The position numbers and the translations under genes are program-made. Source: Escherichia phage HY02. From it: a DNA stretch of 64,000 bases. A model generated the notes under the pieces. It ran no database searches and had not been told where the DNA came from. It saw only the letters and a program-made list of their open reading frames with translations. Position 1 is the stretch's first letter, and each line of letters begins with the position of its first letter. Of this stretch, positions 27,637 through 32,079 are shown piece after piece. The stretch lies in sequence record KM092515; one strand, 5' to 3'.

Positions 27637-28812
27637 ATGGCAGTCGGTGAAATTCAAATTAGTGCCTTGCCACAAGCGACATTACCTGTTGATTTAAGTG
27701 ATATCTTCCATCTTAAGCAAGGTGTTGAGGATAAAAGATGTACGCTTGAACAGTTGTTAGCACCTCACGCATCTTTGAGGAATAATCCTCATGGTGTAAC
27801 CAAATCACAAGTGGGTCTTGATAATGTTATTAACTCTCTTCAATTAGTTGCAGCTAATAACTTGTCAGACATTGTGAATGTTGCTGAGGCAAGAGCAAAT
27901 CTACAAATTATGTCGTCAGAGGAAGTGAATAACTTAATTCAGCAACATATTGACGACAAAAGTAACCCACACAATACAACGAAAGCACAGGTCGGTTTAA
28001 GTAATGTTCAGAACTGGACAACATCTAATCTGTACAATGAAGATGCTGATAAGTACGCCACCGCGAGAGCAGTGAATAATTTATACAAAGCTATTCAAGC
28101 ATCATATCCAGTAGGGACTATTCATCTATCTGTTAACTCTGCCAACCCATCCACTTACTTGCTTTGTGGAGGTACTTGGGAGTTAGTTTCTAAAGGTAGA
28201 GCACTAGTTGGTTACGATACAGATTCTAGACCTGTTGGTTCAATGTTTGGTTCTCAGACTGTAGCATTAACGAATAATAATTTACCAGCACACACACACT
28301 CTATCTATCTAACAGGTGGTGGTCATACACACTCTGCAAGTGTATCTATCTCTAGTTTTGATTATGGTTCAAAGAGTACATCAACTTTTGACTACGGTAC
28401 AAAAACGACTAATAGTGCTGGTGCTCATACTCACACGTTTAGTGGTACAACAAGTAATGCTGGTAACCACAACCACAGAGTACCTATGAGGGGTAATGAT
28501 AGGGGTGGTACAAATGCTATTACTGCATCTGCTGATGCTGGTGCTGGTAATGCTATGTATACTGATTTAGCTGGTGCTCACACCCATAGCTTCTCAGGCA
28601 CAACTGCATCATCTGGTGCTCATAGCCATACTCTTGCAATTGGTGCTCACAGCCACACTGTTAATATTGGTTCACACAGTCATACGGGCACTGTTACTGT
28701 TTCTAGCTCTGAGCATACACACTCAGGGACATCTGGTTCTGTTGGTGGTGGTCAAGCTTTCAGTGTTGAGCAGCCATCTTTTGTAGTATATGTGTGGCAG
28801 AGAACAGCTTAA
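27637..28812 (+). CDS. tail fibre protein with C-terminal His-X-His repeat region
   Basis: 391 aa; repeated AHTHSF / GAHSHT / GSHSHT motifs and a C-terminus (GGGQAFSVEQPSFVVYVWQRTA) shared with the next gene. Confidence 0.65.
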   Translation: MAVGEIQISALPQATLPVDLSDIFHLKQGVEDKRCTLEQLLAPHASLRNNPHGVTKSQVGLDNVINSLQLVAANNLSDIVNVAEARANLQIMSSEEVNNLIQQHIDDKSNPHNTTKAQVGLSNVQNWTTSNLYNEDADKYATARAVNNLYKAIQASYPVGTIHLSVNSANPSTYLLCGGTWELVSKGRALVGYDTDSRPVGSMFGSQTVALTNNNLPAHTHSIYLTGGGHTHSASVSISSFDYGSKSTSTFDYGTKTTNSAGAHTHTFSGTTSNAGNHNHRVPMRGNDRGGTNAITASADAGAGNAMYTDLAGAHTHSFSGTTASSGAHSHTLAIGAHSHTVNIGSHSHTGTVTVSSSEHTHSGTSGSVGGGQAFSVEQPSFVVYVWQRTA

Positions 28813-28822
28813 TTTCTTTACA

Positions 28823-28842
28823 GGGGCTTTGTAGCCCCTTTT
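28823..28842 (+). terminator. rho-independent terminator between the two tail-fibre genes
   Basis: GGGGCT-TTGT-AGCCCC hairpin followed by TTTT. Confidence 0.6.
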
Positions 28843-28858
28843 AAGAGGAAAATTTATA

Positions 28859-31402
28859 ATGGCAGATTACAAATTGAGTCAATTAAACTCAATCGACACA
28901 ATTCGTTCAGAAGACCTATTGCACATCAGAGTTAAGAAAAGACCTGAAATGCTGGGTGATGAAGACCGTAGAATGACCTATCAAGACTTCTTAGCTTCCT
29001 TCAAACTAGAAAGGTTTGTTCAGATTGCTGGGAGTACTATGACGGGAGACTTAGGTATTGTCAAGTTACTTTACGGTGGCAAGGCTGTATTTGACCCTAC
29101 AGGCTCTTCTGAGATTACTATTGGGGATATTTTAAAGACTTTTAAAATTAACTCAAATGGTCTTAAACTCACTATTGCAGATGCCACAAGGTCGGCAACT
29201 GTTTATCATACTTTGAATAAACCAAGTCCTAATGAACTTGGCATGAGAACTAATGAAGAGAATGATGCAAGATATGCAAGGCTTGCTGTTACAAATAACT
29301 TCAGTATTAGGCAAGCAATTATAACTGATGGTGAGCAGTTAACTCTTAAGAAGGCAACCAATGCAGGTGCTTCATATATTCAAGGTAGAGATGCTAATAA
29401 CCAGCAAACTTGGTATGTTGGACAGGGAAATGCAAACAGTACTAATGTTTATTTGTACAATCATGCTACTGGTGCAATGTTGACCCTTGATGCAACAGCA
29501 GCATTTAACAAGTCACTTAGAATCACTGGTCAAGTTCAACCTTCGGATTTCTCTAACTTAGATGCTAGGTACTTCACTCAGACAGTCGCTAATCAGAGAT
29601 TTGCACAGTTAGCTGCTAATAATAATTTTACTGGAACAAACACGTTTAGTAGAAACCTACTTATCATCAGTGACAGTGCTGCTTTAAGGTTGAAAAATGC
29701 AACAGCTAGCTCACTATTCATTCAGGGTGTTGACTCCCAGAATACTAACAGGTGGTATGTAGGAAACGGGGATAACACAGCCTCTGTGCTGCTACACAAC
29801 TATGTACACGGCTCAAATATCAGGCTTGATAATGGTTATATCTCAGTCAACCAGAACTTCAGAATCACTGGTCAAGTTCAACCTTCAGATTGGGCTAACA
29901 TTGACTCTAGATATATTCCAGCAGCTACTTTGAATAATCTTGCTAAGATTAATGCTAAGAATACTTTTTCTCAAGGTCAGATTATTAAGGTTGACGGAGA
30001 GGTTATTAGACTTCAGGGGGTAAATGATACTGGTGGTTTGTTCTTGCAAGGTTATACTTCTGATGGTACTAAGAAGTGGTTTATGGGTACTAATGCTTCA
30101 GGCAACTTTACTATCAGGGAGATGGTGTTAGGTACTGAACTGTCTCTTAGAGAGAACTATATCCAGTTCAATAAGAATGTAACAATTAATGGGCAGGTTC
30201 AACCACAAGATTGGGCTAACATTGATGGGAGATACTACAACAAATCATCTGCTGATAGTAGATATCTGAGGGTAAGAAGCACTAACTTTAACACTAGTAA
30301 TGTGGAGAAATGGGCTAAGATTGCAACTGTTACTATGCGGCAGGCAACATCGACAGCGGTAATTGAGTTGTTTGGTGGGTCTGGGTTCAACTATGGTGCA
30401 TATAACCAAGCATGTAAAACAGAGATTGTTATTAGAGCAGGGAATAATAGTCCAAAAGGCTTAAATGTTGTTGCATGGAAAAACTCACCGAATGGTGTTG
30501 TGATGGAAATTGGGCATGTTAATACATCTGGTGATAATTATGACATCTACTTAAAAGCTGGTCCCTACCAAAATGCTACGACAGCTAGGGTTCAGTCATC
30601 ATCTAATGCAACAGTGCAGTTGTTTGAGACTCCAGAGACATCTGACAGTGCTCCATCTGGCTATGTTGCTGGGACAATTGCTTATTATTATACTAGTCTC
30701 TTGAAACCAACCCCTTCAGATATTGGTGCATACACTAAAGCAGAGACTGACCAGAAGATTGCAGATGCAATTAGTGACTCTACAGACCTGAATAAAATCT
30801 ATCCAGTAGGTATTGTGACGTGGTTTAACAGTAATGTCAACCCAAACACAGCACTTCCTGGGTTAACTTGGACGTACCTGAATAATGGTGTTGGTAGAAC
30901 TATTAGAATTGCAGCAGCAAACGGTTCAGATGTTGCTACAACTGGTGGTTCAGACTCTGTAACGTTGTCTGTTGGTAACTTACCTTCACACACGCACAGC
31001 TTCTCTGCTACTACTTCATCATTTGACTATGGTACTAAGACTTCTAGCACAACTGGTAACCACAACCACAACAGAGGTACTATGGAGATTACTGGTTCAT
31101 TTGGTTACTTCAGAAGTGACGCTAGTAGCTTCTACACAGCAAGTGGTGCATTCTACCTCGGTAGTCAGGCAGGTTCTAAAGGGTATACTGGTAACAACTT
31201 TACTAATGGTATCCCTGTCAACTTCAACGCATCAAGAAACTGGTCTGGTGTAACGAATACAACAGGTAACCACAGCCACACTGTTGGTATTGGTGCTCAC
31301 AGCCACACAGTTAGCGGTAACACAGGTGGTACTGGTTCTGGTTCAGCATTTAGTGTTACTAACCAGTTCTATAAGTTAATGGCTTGGGTAAGAACTGCTT
31401 AA
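28859..31402 (+). CDS. long tail fibre protein with internal triplicated module and C-terminal His-X-His region
   Basis: 847 aa; three copies of an ITGQVQPSD(W/F)(A/S)N(I/L)D(A/S/G)RY module; C-terminus with SHTHSF, GNHNHN, GNHSHTVGIGAHSHTV and tail AFSVTNQFYKLMAWVRTA. Confidence 0.7.
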   Translation: MADYKLSQLNSIDTIRSEDLLHIRVKKRPEMLGDEDRRMTYQDFLASFKLERFVQIAGSTMTGDLGIVKLLYGGKAVFDPTGSSEITIGDILKTFKINSNGLKLTIADATRSATVYHTLNKPSPNELGMRTNEENDARYARLAVTNNFSIRQAIITDGEQLTLKKATNAGASYIQGRDANNQQTWYVGQGNANSTNVYLYNHATGAMLTLDATAAFNKSLRITGQVQPSDFSNLDARYFTQTVANQRFAQLAANNNFTGTNTFSRNLLIISDSAALRLKNATASSLFIQGVDSQNTNRWYVGNGDNTASVLLHNYVHGSNIRLDNGYISVNQNFRITGQVQPSDWANIDSRYIPAATLNNLAKINAKNTFSQGQIIKVDGEVIRLQGVNDTGGLFLQGYTSDGTKKWFMGTNASGNFTIREMVLGTELSLRENYIQFNKNVTINGQVQPQDWANIDGRYYNKSSADSRYLRVRSTNFNTSNVEKWAKIATVTMRQATSTAVIELFGGSGFNYGAYNQACKTEIVIRAGNNSPKGLNVVAWKNSPNGVVMEIGHVNTSGDNYDIYLKAGPYQNATTARVQSSSNATVQLFETPETSDSAPSGYVAGTIAYYYTSLLKPTPSDIGAYTKAETDQKIADAISDSTDLNKIYPVGIVTWFNSNVNPNTALPGLTWTYLNNGVGRTIRIAAANGSDVATTGGSDSVTLSVGNLPSHTHSFSATTSSFDYGTKTSSTTGNHNHNRGTMEITGSFGYFRSDASSFYTASGAFYLGSQAGSKGYTGNNFTNGIPVNFNASRNWSGVTNTTGNHSHTVGIGAHSHTVSGNTGGTGSGSAFSVTNQFYKLMAWVRTA

Positions 31403-31409
31403 TCCCTTG

Positions 31410-31438
31410 TTGACTGATTGTTAAGATGGTGTTAATAT
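31410..31438 (+). promoter_or_regulatory. sigma70-like promoter (TTGACT, 17 bp, TAATAT)
   Basis: TTGACT at 31410-31415 and TAATAT at 31433-31438, upstream of the 31482 gene. Confidence 0.45.
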
Positions 31439-31481
31439 TCTTTATGGGTATTCTCACCATCTTGGCTGATGAGGTGATTAA

Positions 31482-31679
31482 ATGCCTACAATCCTAGCAA
31501 TTCTTCTAAAAAATCTAGGTAGCTTCTTCTGGAAACTCATTTTATCCCTTCTAAGTGAATACATGATTGAGAAAGTGTTCTTTAAGCTTGCAAGATATCT
31601 TGCGAGTAAGACAGACACACCTATTGATGATGAGTTCGTAGATAACTTAGAAAAAGCTTTTAAGGGGGAGAATAAATGA
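31482..31679 (+). CDS. small membrane protein (holin-like candidate)
   Basis: 65 aa with a hydrophobic N-terminal segment; after the tail-fibre genes, where lysis genes often sit; no endolysin recognised nearby. Confidence 0.4.
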   Translation: MPTILAILLKNLGSFFWKLILSLLSEYMIEKVFFKLARYLASKTDTPIDDEFVDNLEKAFKGENK

Positions 31680-32047
31680 AGTGGCTAGAGGAAGCTTTTA
31701 AAAATAATATTGGTGCAATTGTAGTTGGTATTTTTAGTGTTATTGGGATGTATACCACCATGCAAGTTTCGGATGGTAAGCAAGAGGTGTCTATCACAAC
31801 AAAATTACAGCAGCTAGATAATTACAGTAAATCTAATTACTCAGCTATTCGTGATTTACAGTCTGACATGAGATTGCTTCAGTTAGGGATGGAGAACCAG
31901 AAAGTTCAGTTAGAGAATGTTAAGGGTGAGAACGCAAAACTTACTAAAACTCTTGATAAATTCTCTGACAGTGTGAACAATCTGGCTCAATCAGTATCAG
32001 CCTTGCAAGCTATTACTGAAAAGAACACAAAGAATACTGAAAAATAA
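31676..32047 (+). CDS. membrane-anchored coiled-coil protein (spanin- or holin-like candidate)
   Basis: 123 aa; N-terminal transmembrane helix (IGAIVVGIFSVIGMYTT) then coiled-coil sequence. Confidence 0.4.
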   Translation: MKWLEEAFKNNIGAIVVGIFSVIGMYTTMQVSDGKQEVSITTKLQQLDNYSKSNYSAIRDLQSDMRLLQLGMENQKVQLENVKGENAKLTKTLDKFSDSVNNLAQSVSALQAITEKNTKNTEK

Positions 32048-32054
32048 AATTTAA

Positions 32055-32079
32055 GGCTCCCGTAAAAAGGAGCCTTTTT
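32055..32079. terminator. bidirectional rho-independent terminator between convergent gene blocks
   Basis: AGGCTCC-CGTAAAA-GGAGCCT hairpin with a T-run on the plus side and an A-run upstream; lies between the 31676..32047 gene and the minus-strand thyA. Confidence 0.7.

What the first reader, a model, noticed from the sequence alone, without database searches (positions are those of the whole stretch)
27637..31402. Two tail-fibre genes share a His-X-His repeat C-terminus; the longer one has a triplicated internal module
Both fibre proteins end with clustered HxH motifs and a homologous terminal segment, suggesting a shared metal-binding tip or module exchange between the fibres. The 847-aa protein also contains three copies of ITGQVQPSD(W/F)(A/S)N(I/L)D..RY. 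These repeats also create spurious out-of-frame ORFs (28574-28786, 30972-31253).
Basis: seen in the sequence. Interest (0 to 1): 0.45.

Follow-up and report, generated by a model that had tools for sequence, protein, structure and literature searches.

The report
Felix O1-type phage's two tail fibres
These are the short and long tail fibre genes of a Felix O1-like coliphage (identical to phage HY02); both end in the known T4 gp37-type histidine-stapled receptor-binding tip, so the finding is correct but already described for this phage group.

Summary
Window 27637-28812 (391 aa) and 28859-31402 (847 aa) are the short (STF) and long (LTF) baseplate fibres of a Felixounavirus. The LTF is 100% identical to the Escherichia phage HY02 tail fibre.

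Both C-termini align position by position with each other (E=9e-16) and with the crystal structure of the T4 gp37 receptor-binding tip (2XGF; E=9e-27 and 6e-7). Each has a collar, an ascending needle, a head, a descending needle and a C-terminal strand. The STF has 9 HxH boxes and the LTF 4, far more than chance gives.

The LTF's three ~110-aa tandem units (133-240, 241-354, 356-461) are real. They match Pfam gp37_trimer x3 and T7 gp17. All 132 relatives examined also have three, so the triplication is old.

Module exchange is supported. The window's LTF head cassette sits at 88.7% DNA identity in gp37 of a T-even phage. Felix O1-type Salmonella phages carry one head on both fibres. The LTF is a DNA mosaic whose breakpoints fall at the conserved ITGQVQPSDW motif.

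In this phage, however, the two heads differ (tips 28% identical). The architecture was published for Bas63 and Sf14 in 2025. Verdict: already known, modest interest.

The parts
27637..28812 (+). Short tail fibre (STF) gene, 391 aa; counterpart of Bas63 gp26 / Sf14 gp52
   Evidence: ORF; phrog_2097 tail fiber E=3.6e-138; 99.5% aa identity to the vB_EcoM_H12 protein; same gene order as in 14 Ounavirinae loci
27802..28008 (+). STF shaft holding two copies of the NPHxxTK(S/A)QVGLxNV motif (aa 56-64 and 116-124)
   Evidence: Regex hits at STF 56 and 116; several PHROG tail-fibre families match aa 100-131
28069..28290 (+). STF collar domain (aa 145-218), up to the first His box
   Evidence: Pfam Gp10_C 67.1 bits (cut-off 27), aa 154-276; aligned to the T4 gp37 collar in 2XGF
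28291..28476 (+). STF ascending needle strand (aa 219-280): HxH at 219, 230, 264, 278 and two FDYG(S/T)K repeats
   Evidence: aligned to T4 gp37 His boxes 883, 915, 929
28477..28578 (+). STF head cassette (aa 281-314), presumed receptor-contacting turn of the hairpin
   Evidence: Non-His segment between the ascending and descending boxes, aligned to the T4 gp37 head; this head type is in 58 phage records (O157/STEC/Shigella), one place each except one record with two
28579..28722 (+). STF descending needle strand (aa 315-362): HxH at 315, 329, 338, 347, 360. The 14-9-9 spacing matches T4 966/980/989/998
28723..28809 (+). STF C-terminal segment returning to the collar (...AFSVEQPSFVVYVWQRTA)
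   Evidence: Aligned to the T4 gp37 C-terminus ...NIAFNYIVRLA and to the LTF C-terminus; conserved in all relatives
28823..28842 (+). Intergenic hairpin GGGGCT-TTGT-AGCCCC plus TTTT, followed by AAGAGGA and the LTF ATG
   Evidence: Read directly from the sequence; the equivalent gap in phage KhF2 is annotated as a Rho-independent terminator; not reported by the consensus scan
28859..31402 (+). Long tail fibre (LTF) gene, 847 aa; counterpart of Bas63 gp27 / Sf14 gp53; 100% identical to the Escherichia phage HY02 tail fiber protein
   Evidence: ORF; phrog_4277 full length; P0001 100% identity
28859..29254 (+). LTF conserved N-terminal part (aa 1-132), presumed baseplate-binding domain
   Evidence: 90-100% identical across Felixounavirus LTFs; function taken from the Bas63 description
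29255..29578 (+). LTF shaft unit 1 (aa 133-240). Its variable core resembles that of Salmonella phage BPS15Q2
   Evidence: HMM and Pfam unit boundaries; core 87-97% DNA identity to BPS15Q2 against 43-53% to the others
29579..29920 (+). LTF shaft unit 2 (aa 241-354). Its core resembles JN01/VpaE1_ev78 and is homologous to the N-terminal part of the T7 gp17 C-terminal-domain structure
   Evidence: PDB 4A0T/7BOZ E about 1e-6 over aa 251-344; 92.9% identical to unit 3 of P0038
29924..30241 (+). LTF shaft unit 3 (aa 356-461). Rare core type
   Evidence: only 2 of 119 LTF homologues are >=90% identical in this core; present in E. coli K-12 phages Alf5, pinkbiff, Tribble and DE7
29495..29571 (+). Conserved junction 1 (..RITGQVQPSDFSNLDARY). 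With 29837-29913 and 30158-30234 it forms a 3-copy DNA repeat
   Evidence: the repeat finder family D1; 26-nt exact match 29519/29861; mosaic breakpoints fall here
29837..29913 (+). Conserved junction 2 (..RITGQVQPSDWANIDSRY)
30158..30234 (+). Conserved junction 3 (..TINGQVQPQDWANIDGRY)
30269..30748 (+). LTF D domain (aa 471-630), the long form. Its two alternative forms account for the ~780-aa and ~847-aa LTF size classes
   Evidence: Gap pattern and identities; PHROG tail-fibre families match aa 475-627; T-even gp37 hits over aa 485-635; AF2 pLDDT 75-88, beta-rich
30764..30988 (+). LTF collar domain (aa 636-710)
   Evidence: Pfam Gp10_C 26.6 bits, just under the cut-off of 27; aligned to the STF and T4 collars; 97-100% conserved in the genus
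30989..31069 (+). LTF ascending needle (aa 711-737): HxH at 711 and 735, one FDYGTK repeat
   Evidence: these His residues are invariant in 46 LTFs
31070..31270 (+). LTF head cassette (aa 738-804; 67 aa, about twice the length of the T4 and STF heads)
   Evidence: 100% identical to wV8 / O157 typing phages
31271..31399 (+). LTF descending needle (HxH at 805 and 814) and C-terminal strand (...AFSVTNQFYKLMAWVRTA)
31022..31305 (+). Portable tip cassette, bounded by the SSFDYGTK box and the GNHxHTVGIGAHSH His box
   Evidence: 88.7% DNA identity over 284 nt with gp37 of the T-even phage vB_EcoM-ZQ3, whose flanks are T4-like
28574..28786 (+). Spurious frame +1 ORF inside the STF gene
30972..31253 (+). 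Spurious frame +1 ORF inside the LTF gene

Best explanation
The two genes encode the short and long baseplate fibres of a Felix O1-like myophage (HY02).

Shown or supported by homology: each fibre ends in a T4 gp37-type receptor-binding tip. The tip has a collar, then a chain that runs out along a needle, turns in a small head domain, runs back and finishes in the collar.

Inferred from T4 gp37: each fibre is a homotrimer. The HxH boxes on the outgoing and returning strands point into the needle axis, where three HxH (six His) coordinate one metal ion, iron in T4. The metal staples the six-stranded needle. That would give about 9 sites in the STF and 4 in the LTF. The non-His head at the hairpin turn would contact the receptor, LPS or O-antigen glycans in this phage group.

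Recombination: because the collar, the FDYGTK box and the His boxes are conserved at the DNA level, they also act as junctions for homologous recombination. The head can therefore be swapped as a cassette between phages, and between the two fibres.

LTF shaft: it holds three ancient tandem ~110-aa modules, homologous to part of the T7 gp17 C-terminal domain and to Pfam gp37_trimer. The conserved ITGQVQPSDW.N.D.RY ends of these modules are structural linkers. They are also the breakpoints at which variable module cores are shuffled among phages.

In this phage the two fibres carry different heads, so they probably recognise two different surface structures.
For: Identity and synteny:
- LTF 100% identical to the HY02 tail fibre; STF 99.5% identical to the vB_EcoM_H12 protein.
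- Gene order Baseplate_J wedge (489 aa), 284-aa wedge, 100-aa protein, STF, LTF, as in 14 Ounavirinae loci and as described for Bas63 gp23-gp27.

Tip homology:
- STF 145-362 vs 2XGF E=9e-27; LTF 705-826 vs 2XGF E=5.6e-7.
- The three-way alignment is positional, with the HxH spacing 14-9-9 preserved.
- All eight His of the LTF boxes are invariant in 46 LTFs.
- HxH excess over shuffles.

Published model: the Bas63 cryo-EM paper describes both fibres with a collar, an HxH needle and a head like T4 gp37, Fe-coordinating in T4 (PMC12609058). The Sf14 paper describes two fibres and a gp37-like tip (PMC11821841).

Cassette exchange:
- ZQ3 gp37 chimera, 88.7% DNA identity over 284 nt.
- Same head on both fibres in UAB_Phi87; 128 places in 77 records, Felix O1 included.
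- Head types track host. The Felix O1-type head is in 71 Salmonella records of 77. The window's head types are in O157/STEC/Shigella phages.

Shaft units:
- Pfam gp37_trimer x3; T7 gp17 E about 1e-6.
- Three units in 132 of 132 LTFs.
- Sharp DNA mosaic with conserved ~60-nt junctions.
- Bimodal core identities, 66 combinations in 132 proteins.
Against: - No direct evidence here for trimerisation, metal binding or the identity of the metal.
- The only structure prediction possible was a monomer, and it was uninformative for the tip (pLDDT <50 over 633-847).
- The LTF collar falls just below Pfam's Gp10_C cut-off (26.6 vs 27 bits).
- The LTF has only 4 HxH and a head twice the T4 size, so its distal geometry may differ from T4.
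- T4 and lambda members of this tip family have an adjacent gp38/Tfa chaperone (PMC9659904). None was found in this window.
- The receptors of HY02's two fibres are unknown. The claim that the head contacts the receptor is carried over from T4.
Confidence: 0.85

Rival explanations
1. The shared C-termini reflect a recent duplication or gene conversion between the two fibre genes within this genome.
For: The genes are adjacent paralogues with the same tip architecture. In UAB_Phi87 the two fibres share a nearly identical ~60-aa head cassette, and most records with that head type hold it at two places. Intragenomic copying therefore does happen in this group.
Against: - In this window the tips are only 28% identical at the protein level.
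- The STF tip scores better against the T4 gp37 tip (103 bits) than against its own LTF (61 bits).
- The longest exact DNA match between the two genes is a 20-nt His box.
- The two head types each occur once per genome in 58 records, with one exception.
Confidence: 0.04
2. The similarity is compositional only: Gly/Ser/Thr/His-rich low complexity without positional correspondence.
For: The region is rich in G, S, T and H. BLAST marks it with composition adjustment.
Against: - The composition-adjusted E-value is still 9e-16.
- Both tips align to a crystal-structure sequence with conserved box order and spacing.
- The collar and the C-terminal strand, which are not low complexity, also align.
- HxH counts exceed those of composition-preserving shuffles.
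Confidence: 0.01
3. The diversity of the LTF shaft-unit cores arises by accelerated point mutation (drift under relaxed constraint, or targeted hypermutation such as a diversity-generating retroelement) rather than by cassette recombination.
For: The Bas63 authors list tolerance to missense mutation as one possible explanation for the variable beta-helix repeat domains. Within core families there is graded divergence of 80-100%.
Against: - Pairwise core identities are bimodal, 20-40% or 80-100%, with few intermediates for unit 1.
- DNA identity switches abruptly, for example from 43-53% to 87-97%, at conserved junctions, and different relatives are the best match in adjacent units.
- The same core occurs in different slots: the window's unit 2 is 92.9% identical to P0038 unit 3, and P0004 units 1 and 3 share essentially one core.
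- Association between cassettes is low (AMI 0.11-0.42).
- No reverse transcriptase or template repeat was looked for.
Confidence: 0.07
4. The HxH boxes serve a function other than structural metal stapling, for example catalysis, receptor contact or pH sensing.
For: Not tested directly. HxH motifs occur in several metalloenzymes (general knowledge).
Against: - The boxes align one-to-one with the structural needle boxes of T4 gp37.
- They are invariant while the head between them varies.
- No enzyme family matched either protein in Pfam or PHROGs.
Confidence: 0.03

Closest known systems
Bas63 (Escherichia phage JohannRWettstein) STF gp26 and LTF gp27, and Sf14 gp52/gp53 (Ounavirinae; cryo-EM 2025, PMC12609058 and PMC11821841)
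   Same: Same gene order and same two-fibre arrangement. Both fibres end in a T4 gp37-like tip with a collar, an HxH needle and a head. The LTF carries repeated shaft domains separated by short helix-turn linkers. The tips and the repeat domains are the hypervariable parts in the genus.
   Different: - HxH counts differ: 9 and 4 here, against 7 and 6 reported for Bas63.
- The LTF head here is the 67-aa wV8/O157 type.
- Bas63 is described with five beta-helix repeat domains, whereas only three units are detectable as sequence repeats here.
- This LTF's combination of cassettes is unique among the 132 homologues compared. No other protein among 5.8 billion non-redundant sequences exceeds 79% identity to it.
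T4 gp37 receptor-binding tip (PDB 2XGF)
   Same: Collar, six-stranded needle with HxH boxes on both strands, head at the turn, and C-terminus back in the collar. Box order and the 14-9-9 spacing are conserved, as is the FDYGTK box.
   Different: - The STF has two extra boxes (230 and 360). The LTF lacks the pair next to the head and has a larger head.
- Here each fibre is a single polypeptide attached directly to the baseplate, not the distal segment of a four-protein fibre.
- No adjacent gp38-type chaperone, unlike T4.
T7 gp17 C-terminal domain (PDB 4A0T/4A0U) and Pfam PF20744 gp37_trimer
   Same: Each LTF unit matches PF20744. Unit 2 aligns to chain residues 48-117 of 4A0T and to gp17 residues 349-442 of 7BOZ, with conserved WY(I/V)G and HxYVHG motifs.
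   Different: T7 has one copy, directly upstream of its globular tip. Here there are three in tandem in mid-shaft, with hypervariable cores.
T-even distal fibre locus plasticity: recombination between conserved His-box motifs swaps adhesin specificity (Tetart, Desplats and Krisch 1998, recalled from memory and not retrieved here); T4/lambda RBP family (PMC9659904)
   Same: Conserved boxes flank a variable specificity segment. The same cassette is found in unrelated phage backbones (Felixounavirus LTF and Mosigvirus gp37).
   Different: T4/lambda family members carry a linked gp38/Tfa chaperone, and none is seen next to these genes. In Felixounavirus the cassette can sit on two different fibres of one virion.

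Membership tests
T4 gp37-type receptor-binding tip (2XGF) | Significant sequence similarity to the crystallised tip | tested here: met
   STF 145-362 E=9.1e-27; LTF 705-826 E=5.6e-7
T4 gp37-type receptor-binding tip (2XGF) | Collar domain (Pfam PF21939 Gp10_C) preceding the needle | tested here: met
   STF 67.1 bits against a cut-off of 27. LTF 26.6 bits, just below the cut-off, but its collar aligns to the STF and T4 collars
T4 gp37-type receptor-binding tip (2XGF) | HxH boxes on both an outgoing and a returning strand, flanking a His-free head | tested here: met
   STF 4 + 5 boxes around aa 281-314; LTF 2 + 2 boxes around aa 738-804; boxes align to T4 883/915/929 and 966/980/989/998
T4 gp37-type receptor-binding tip (2XGF) | C-terminal strand returning to the collar (conserved ...R-x-A end) | tested here: met
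   ...VWQRTA and ...WVRTA against T4 ...IVRLA in the alignment
T4 gp37-type receptor-binding tip (2XGF) | Homotrimer with octahedral coordination of metal ions by six His per site | not testable with these tools
   Only a monomer could be predicted; the tip region had pLDDT <50
T4 gp37-type receptor-binding tip (2XGF) | Linked gp38/Tfa-type assembly chaperone, as in T4/lambda members | tested here: not met
   tblastn of T4 gp38 against the whole 64-kb window: best E=0.18. The downstream ORFs match PHROGs of unknown function. This is a low-sensitivity test, and about 22 kb of the phage lies outside the window
Ounavirinae STF/LTF fibre pair (Bas63 gp26/gp27) | Synteny: wedge proteins, 100-aa platform protein, STF, LTF at the end of the late structural block | tested here: met
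   identical order in 14 loci; gene products as described
Ounavirinae STF/LTF fibre pair (Bas63 gp26/gp27) | Full-length similarity to annotated Felixounavirus fibre proteins | tested here: met
   phrog_2097 E=3.6e-138 and phrog_4277 full length; STF 99.5% to H12; LTF 100% to HY02
Ounavirinae STF/LTF fibre pair (Bas63 gp26/gp27) | LTF with five beta-helix repeat domains separated by helix-turn motifs | tested here: inconclusive
   Three units are detectable by sequence. The AF2 monomer shows beta-rich cores separated by short helices. The other two domains of the published description are not sequence repeats of these
Pfam PF20744 gp37_trimer / T7 gp17 C-terminal-domain module | Score above the Pfam gathering threshold; similarity to the solved T7 gp17 domain | tested here: met
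   181.2 bits against a cut-off of 21.7, three stretches; 4A0T E=1.6e-6; Foldseek 4A0U E=6e-4, from a low-confidence model
Diversity-generating retroelement target | Reverse transcriptase plus template/variable repeat pair with adenine-specific differences | not tested
   Not searched. The variation is whole cassettes with indels and 20-40% identity, unlike DGR mutagenesis

The most novel reading that the evidence does not exclude
The LTF is a four-slot combinatorial fibre: three shaft-module cores plus the tip head. Each slot is filled from a shared pool of discrete sequence types. I found 45 core families and about 20 head types among 132 proteins. Conserved ~60-nt junctions act as recombination sites, and cores occasionally move between slots (4 families occur in more than one slot).

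If the shaft cores are functional, for example as secondary glycan-binding sites or as targets of a host defence or of antibody that select for escape, this would be a second layer of specificity. That layer was noted but left unexplained in the Bas63 paper.
Probability: 0.3. Interest if true: 0.5.

Novelty: already known. Interest (0 to 1): 0.25.

Why it matters
The tips of these two fibres decide which bacteria a Felix O1-like phage can attack. This group is used for Salmonella typing and for biocontrol of E. coli O157. Knowing that the receptor-contacting head is a cassette bounded by conserved FDYGTK and His boxes gives precise junctions for engineering host range. The same cassette works on an STF, on an LTF and on a T-even gp37, which suggests it is portable.

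The analysis also separates two kinds of variation. Head types track the host genus. Shaft-core types do not, which narrows the explanations for the unexpected shaft variability reported for Bas63.

None of this changes the classification of the genes, which are annotated tail fibres of a published phage.

Tried and rejected
- Self-BLASTP of the LTF returned no off-diagonal hits. I replaced it with an HMM built from the three units.
- AF2 monomer of the full LTF with a 46-sequence alignment gave mean pLDDT 54. It was confident only for the three unit cores and the D domain, and below 50 for the N-terminus and the whole tip. It says nothing about the HxH needle.
- Foldseek of that model against the PDB was dominated by OspA-like single-layer sheets with TM 0.06-0.17. 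Only the T7 gp17 hit (E=6e-4) agrees with the sequence evidence. The WceF 6TGF hit (E=2.7e-8) was not pursued.
- The second structure job and the remaining fold searches were not used, because a trimer cannot be submitted.
- A search for a T4 gp38-like chaperone in the window found nothing.
- The consensus promoter/terminator scan showed nothing specific inside the genes.
- I considered and rejected compositional similarity only, recent intragenomic duplication in this genome, and DGR-type hypermutation (see the rival explanations).
- I could not locate the Bas63 genome record, so the comparison with Bas63 rests on the paper's text. CL1, with 7 and 6 HxH, shows the same counts as reported for Bas63.

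Full report
**What is there**

The window is a Felix O1-like myophage. The region's best DNA matches are E. coli O157 Felixounavirus phages: JN01, KEP1 and wV8, with 84-91% coverage at 90-95% identity. The 847-aa protein is 100% identical to 'tail fiber protein [Escherichia phage HY02]'.

The two ORFs of the finding are 27637-28812 (391 aa) and 28859-31402 (847 aa), both on the + strand. They follow a Baseplate_J wedge protein (489 aa), a 284-aa baseplate protein and a 100-aa protein. Two small ORFs of unknown function follow them. A bidirectional terminator at 32053-32076 then separates the block from the oppositely oriented thyA/frd genes.

The same order is found in 14 Ounavirinae loci that I fetched. 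It corresponds to Bas63 gp23-gp27: wedge 2, wedge 1, LTF platform, STF and LTF. The genes are therefore the short (STF) and long (LTF) baseplate fibres.

**Check of the observation**

- The STF has 9 HxH motifs, at residues 219, 230, 264, 278, 315, 329, 338, 347 and 360. Every one of the 18 His residues in its last 180 residues lies in such a box. Shuffling gives 1.4-1.7 on average and never more than 7 in 20,000 trials.
- The LTF has 4 HxH motifs, at 711, 735, 805 and 814 (P about 1e-4). All eight of these His residues are invariant in an alignment of 46 LTFs.
- The two C-termini align with E=9e-16 (29% identity over 243 columns), through ordered blocks: YPVG...NLPxHTHS, SSFDYGTKT, GxHSHTxxIGAHSHTV and AFSV...W.RTA.
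- The LTF has three tandem units at 133-240, 241-354 and 356-461, 35-46% identical to each other. Pfam gp37_trimer matches three times (E=3.6e-54).
It is D.RY, and copy 3 reads INGQVQPQDWANIDGRY.
- The two alternative-frame ORFs exist in frame +1 of the host genes and have no family match. Codon-shuffled versions of the genes give open stretches as long in 34% and 42% of trials. They are ordinary spurious ORFs rather than a product of the repeats.

**What the tips are**

STF residues 145-362 match the crystallised T4 gp37 receptor-binding tip (2XGF) with E=9e-27. LTF residues 705-826 match it with E=6e-7. A three-way alignment is positional throughout: collar, first His box, FDYGTK box, further His boxes, a His-free segment, returning His boxes, and a C-terminal strand ending R-x-A.

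T4 has seven needle boxes, at 883, 915, 929 | 966, 980, 989, 998.

- The STF has these seven plus one extra on each strand (230 and 360). It keeps the 14-9-9 spacing on the returning strand.
- The LTF keeps only the two collar-proximal boxes on each strand. Where T4 has about 36 residues between the inner boxes and the STF has 34, the LTF has a 67-residue head.

The mechanism is inferred from T4, as summarised in the Bas63 paper. In the trimer, three HxH motifs give six His ligands per metal ion. The ions line the axis of a six-stranded beta needle, and the head at the hairpin turn touches the receptor. I could not test trimerisation or metal binding. The only prediction available is a monomer, and it was unreliable for the tip (pLDDT <50 over 633-847).

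**Already published**

The Bas63 cryo-EM paper (Sci Adv 2025, PMC12609058) states that both Felixounavirus fibres have a T4 gp37-like tip with a collar, an HxH needle and a head. It reports 7 boxes in the STF and 6 in the LTF. It also reports that the LTF has repeated beta-helix domains resembling the T4 gp34 rod, and that the tips and these repeat domains are the variable parts in the genus. The Sf14 paper (PMC11821841) describes the same two fibres in a sister genus. wV8, UAB_Phi87 and JN01 already annotate the STF as 'tail fiber protein GP37'. The finding is therefore correct, but known.

**Module exchange**

I tested this directly, and four results bear on it.

1. In this window the two tips are only 28% identical (61 bits). 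The STF tip scores better against the T4 gp37 tip (36.6%, 103 bits) than against its own LTF. The longest exact DNA match between the two genes is a 20-nt His box, ATTGGTGCTCACAGCCACAC (28639 / 31289). So there has been no recent exchange within this genome.
2. In Salmonella phage UAB_Phi87, the STF and LTF share a ~60-aa, nearly identical distal needle plus head. That head type is found in 77 records (71 named Salmonella phages) at 128 places. About 51 records therefore hold it at two places, Felix O1 among them, most simply one per fibre gene.
3. The window's STF head and LTF head are each found in 58 records from O157/STEC/Shigella phages. Each occurs at one place per record, apart from one record with two for the STF head.
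4. The window's LTF head cassette (31022-31305) occurs at 88.7% DNA identity over 284 nt inside gp37 of the T-even phage vB_EcoM-ZQ3. That protein's collar, proximal needle and C-terminus are T4-like. The boundaries are the SSFDYGTK box and the GNHxHTVGIGAHSH box.

The tip head is thus a portable cassette bounded by conserved boxes. It moves between phage families and between the two fibres of one virion. Head type also tracks host genus.

**The triplicated module**

Each unit corresponds to Pfam gp37_trimer. Unit 2 aligns to the N-terminal part of the solved T7 gp17 C-terminal domain (4A0T/7BOZ, E about 1e-6). All 132 LTFs examined have exactly three units at the same positions, including LTFs of the sister genus Mooglevirus. 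The triplication is therefore ancient.

Between these junctions the cores are hypervariable in a cassette-like way. The window's LTF breaks down as follows:

| LTF segment (window nt, approx.) | Nearest relative | DNA identity |
|---|---|---|
| N-terminus (28859-29256) | H12, JN01, wV8-type | about 88-98% |
| Unit 1 core (29257-29556) | Salmonella phage BPS15Q2 | 87-97%, against 43-53% to others |
| Unit 2 core (29617-29856) | JN01 / VpaE1_ev78 | 83-97%, against 43-58% to others |
| Unit 3 core (29917-30216) | Rare type; >=90% (protein) in 2 of 119 homologues; present in K-12 phages Alf5, pinkbiff, Tribble | low to all six compared phages at DNA level |
| D domain (30217-30696) | JN01 | 80-88% |
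| From within the collar to the gene end, including the head (30817-31402) | wV8-type (O157 typing phage 8) | 100% |

Transitions are abrupt and fall in ~60-nt junctions conserved in all phages, at 29557-29616 and 29857-29916.

Across the 132 LTFs, the cores fall into 12-17 discrete types per slot, with bimodal identities. There are 66 combinations and weak linkage between slots (AMI 0.11-0.42). The window's combination is unique, which explains why the next-best whole protein among 5.8 billion non-redundant sequences is only 79% identical.

Cores occasionally change slot. The window's unit 2 is 92.9% identical to unit 3 of Salmonella phage DaR-2019a (P0038). P0004 has essentially the same core in slots 1 and 3. 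Four of 45 core families occur in more than one slot.

Core types do not follow host. The window's unit 1 type occurs in O157, E. coli B, E. fergusonii and Salmonella phages. Its unit 3 type occurs in K-12 and Salmonella Pullorum phages. This argues against the cores setting genus-level host range. It leaves open strain-level glycan binding, escape from a defence system or antibody, or neutral shuffling. These are the possibilities raised, without the recombination evidence, by the Bas63 authors.

**Differences from T4**

Each fibre here is one polypeptide. No gp38-like chaperone was found in the 64-kb window (best tblastn E=0.18), whereas T4/lambda-type tips normally have one adjacent. The test is insensitive, and part of the genome lies outside the window.

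**Verdict**

The genes are the STF and LTF of a published Felixounavirus, with a known tip architecture. The cassette-level analysis (cross-family head transfer, one head on both fibres in Felix O1-type phages, slot-based shuffling of shaft cores) adds detail beyond the papers I read. It remains within the well-known theme of tail-fibre mosaicism. Novelty: already known. Interest: 0.25.

Noticed in passing
L017 3950-4233 (Mosigvirus vB_EcoM-ZQ3 gp37, MW630116.1) vs window 31022-31305: A T-even phage gp37 carries the Felixounavirus wV8/HY02-type LTF head cassette (88.7% DNA identity over 284 nt), between T4-like collar/needle and C-terminal sequences. This looks like a cross-family chimera at the FDYGTK and His-box junctions.
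   Followed up: yes
L010 (UAB_Phi87) STF and LTF; NC_005282.1 Felix O1 and about 50 other Salmonella phage records: UAB_Phi87 carries essentially the same ~60-aa distal-needle/head cassette on both fibres. Most of the 77 records with this head type hold it at two places. The O157/Shigella group, including this window, has two different heads.
   Followed up: yes
P0038 residues 349-461; P0004 residues 133-240 and 347-460: Shaft-unit cores can occupy a different slot. The window's unit 2 is 92.9% identical to unit 3 of Salmonella phage DaR-2019a. P0004 has nearly the same unit in slots 1 and 3. Copy number stays at three in all 132 LTFs.
   Followed up: yes
window 28823-28842: A 6-bp GC hairpin (GGGGCT TTGT AGCCCC) followed by TTTT lies in the 46-nt gap between the STF and LTF genes, just before the LTF ribosome-binding site. 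The homologous gap in phage KhF2 is annotated as a terminator. It might attenuate transcription or set the STF:LTF ratio.
   Followed up: partly
window 30269-30748 (LTF aa 471-630): A beta-rich domain between the shaft units and the collar exists in two alternative forms. This accounts for the ~780-aa and ~847-aa LTF size classes. It is shared with T-even gp37 and with SSU5-like and 3sent1-like fibres (33-47% identity). It is predicted confidently by AF2, and the best Foldseek hit is WceF 6TGF (E=2.7e-8). Its function is unknown.
   Followed up: partly
window 27637-32047 and the whole window: There is no gp38/Tfa-like fibre chaperone next to two gp37-type tips. The two downstream small ORFs (31482-31679, 31676-32047) match PHROGs of unknown function, and the second is annotated 'holin' in relatives. 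How these tips fold without the usual chaperone is open.
   Followed up: partly
STF aa 240-258 (window about 28354-28410); HP1 and Mordin STF (L008, L012): The FDYG(S/T)K decapeptide in the ascending needle varies in copy number. It is one in the LTF, two in this STF and about four in the Citrobacter phage STFs, where it is accompanied by a different distribution of His boxes. This appears to be a needle-length polymorphism.
   Followed up: partly
L013 (Erwinia phage phiEa21-4, Kolesnikvirus): In this outgroup the LTF position is occupied by two genes (502 aa and 244 aa) with no HxH boxes. The STF homologue has 6 HxH. The gp37-type tip on the long fibre is therefore not universal in Ounavirinae.
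   Followed up: no
GU169904.1 'Staphylococcus phage SA1' (hits H54, H247): A 147-kb record labelled as a Staphylococcus phage contains Felix O1-type fibre genes with the Salmonella-type head at two places. It is probably a mixed or mislabelled assembly.
   Followed up: no
window 32053-32076: A strong bidirectional terminator hairpin (AAGGCTCC...GGAGCCTT with T-runs on both strands) marks the boundary between the late structural block and the convergent thyA/frd genes.
   Followed up: no
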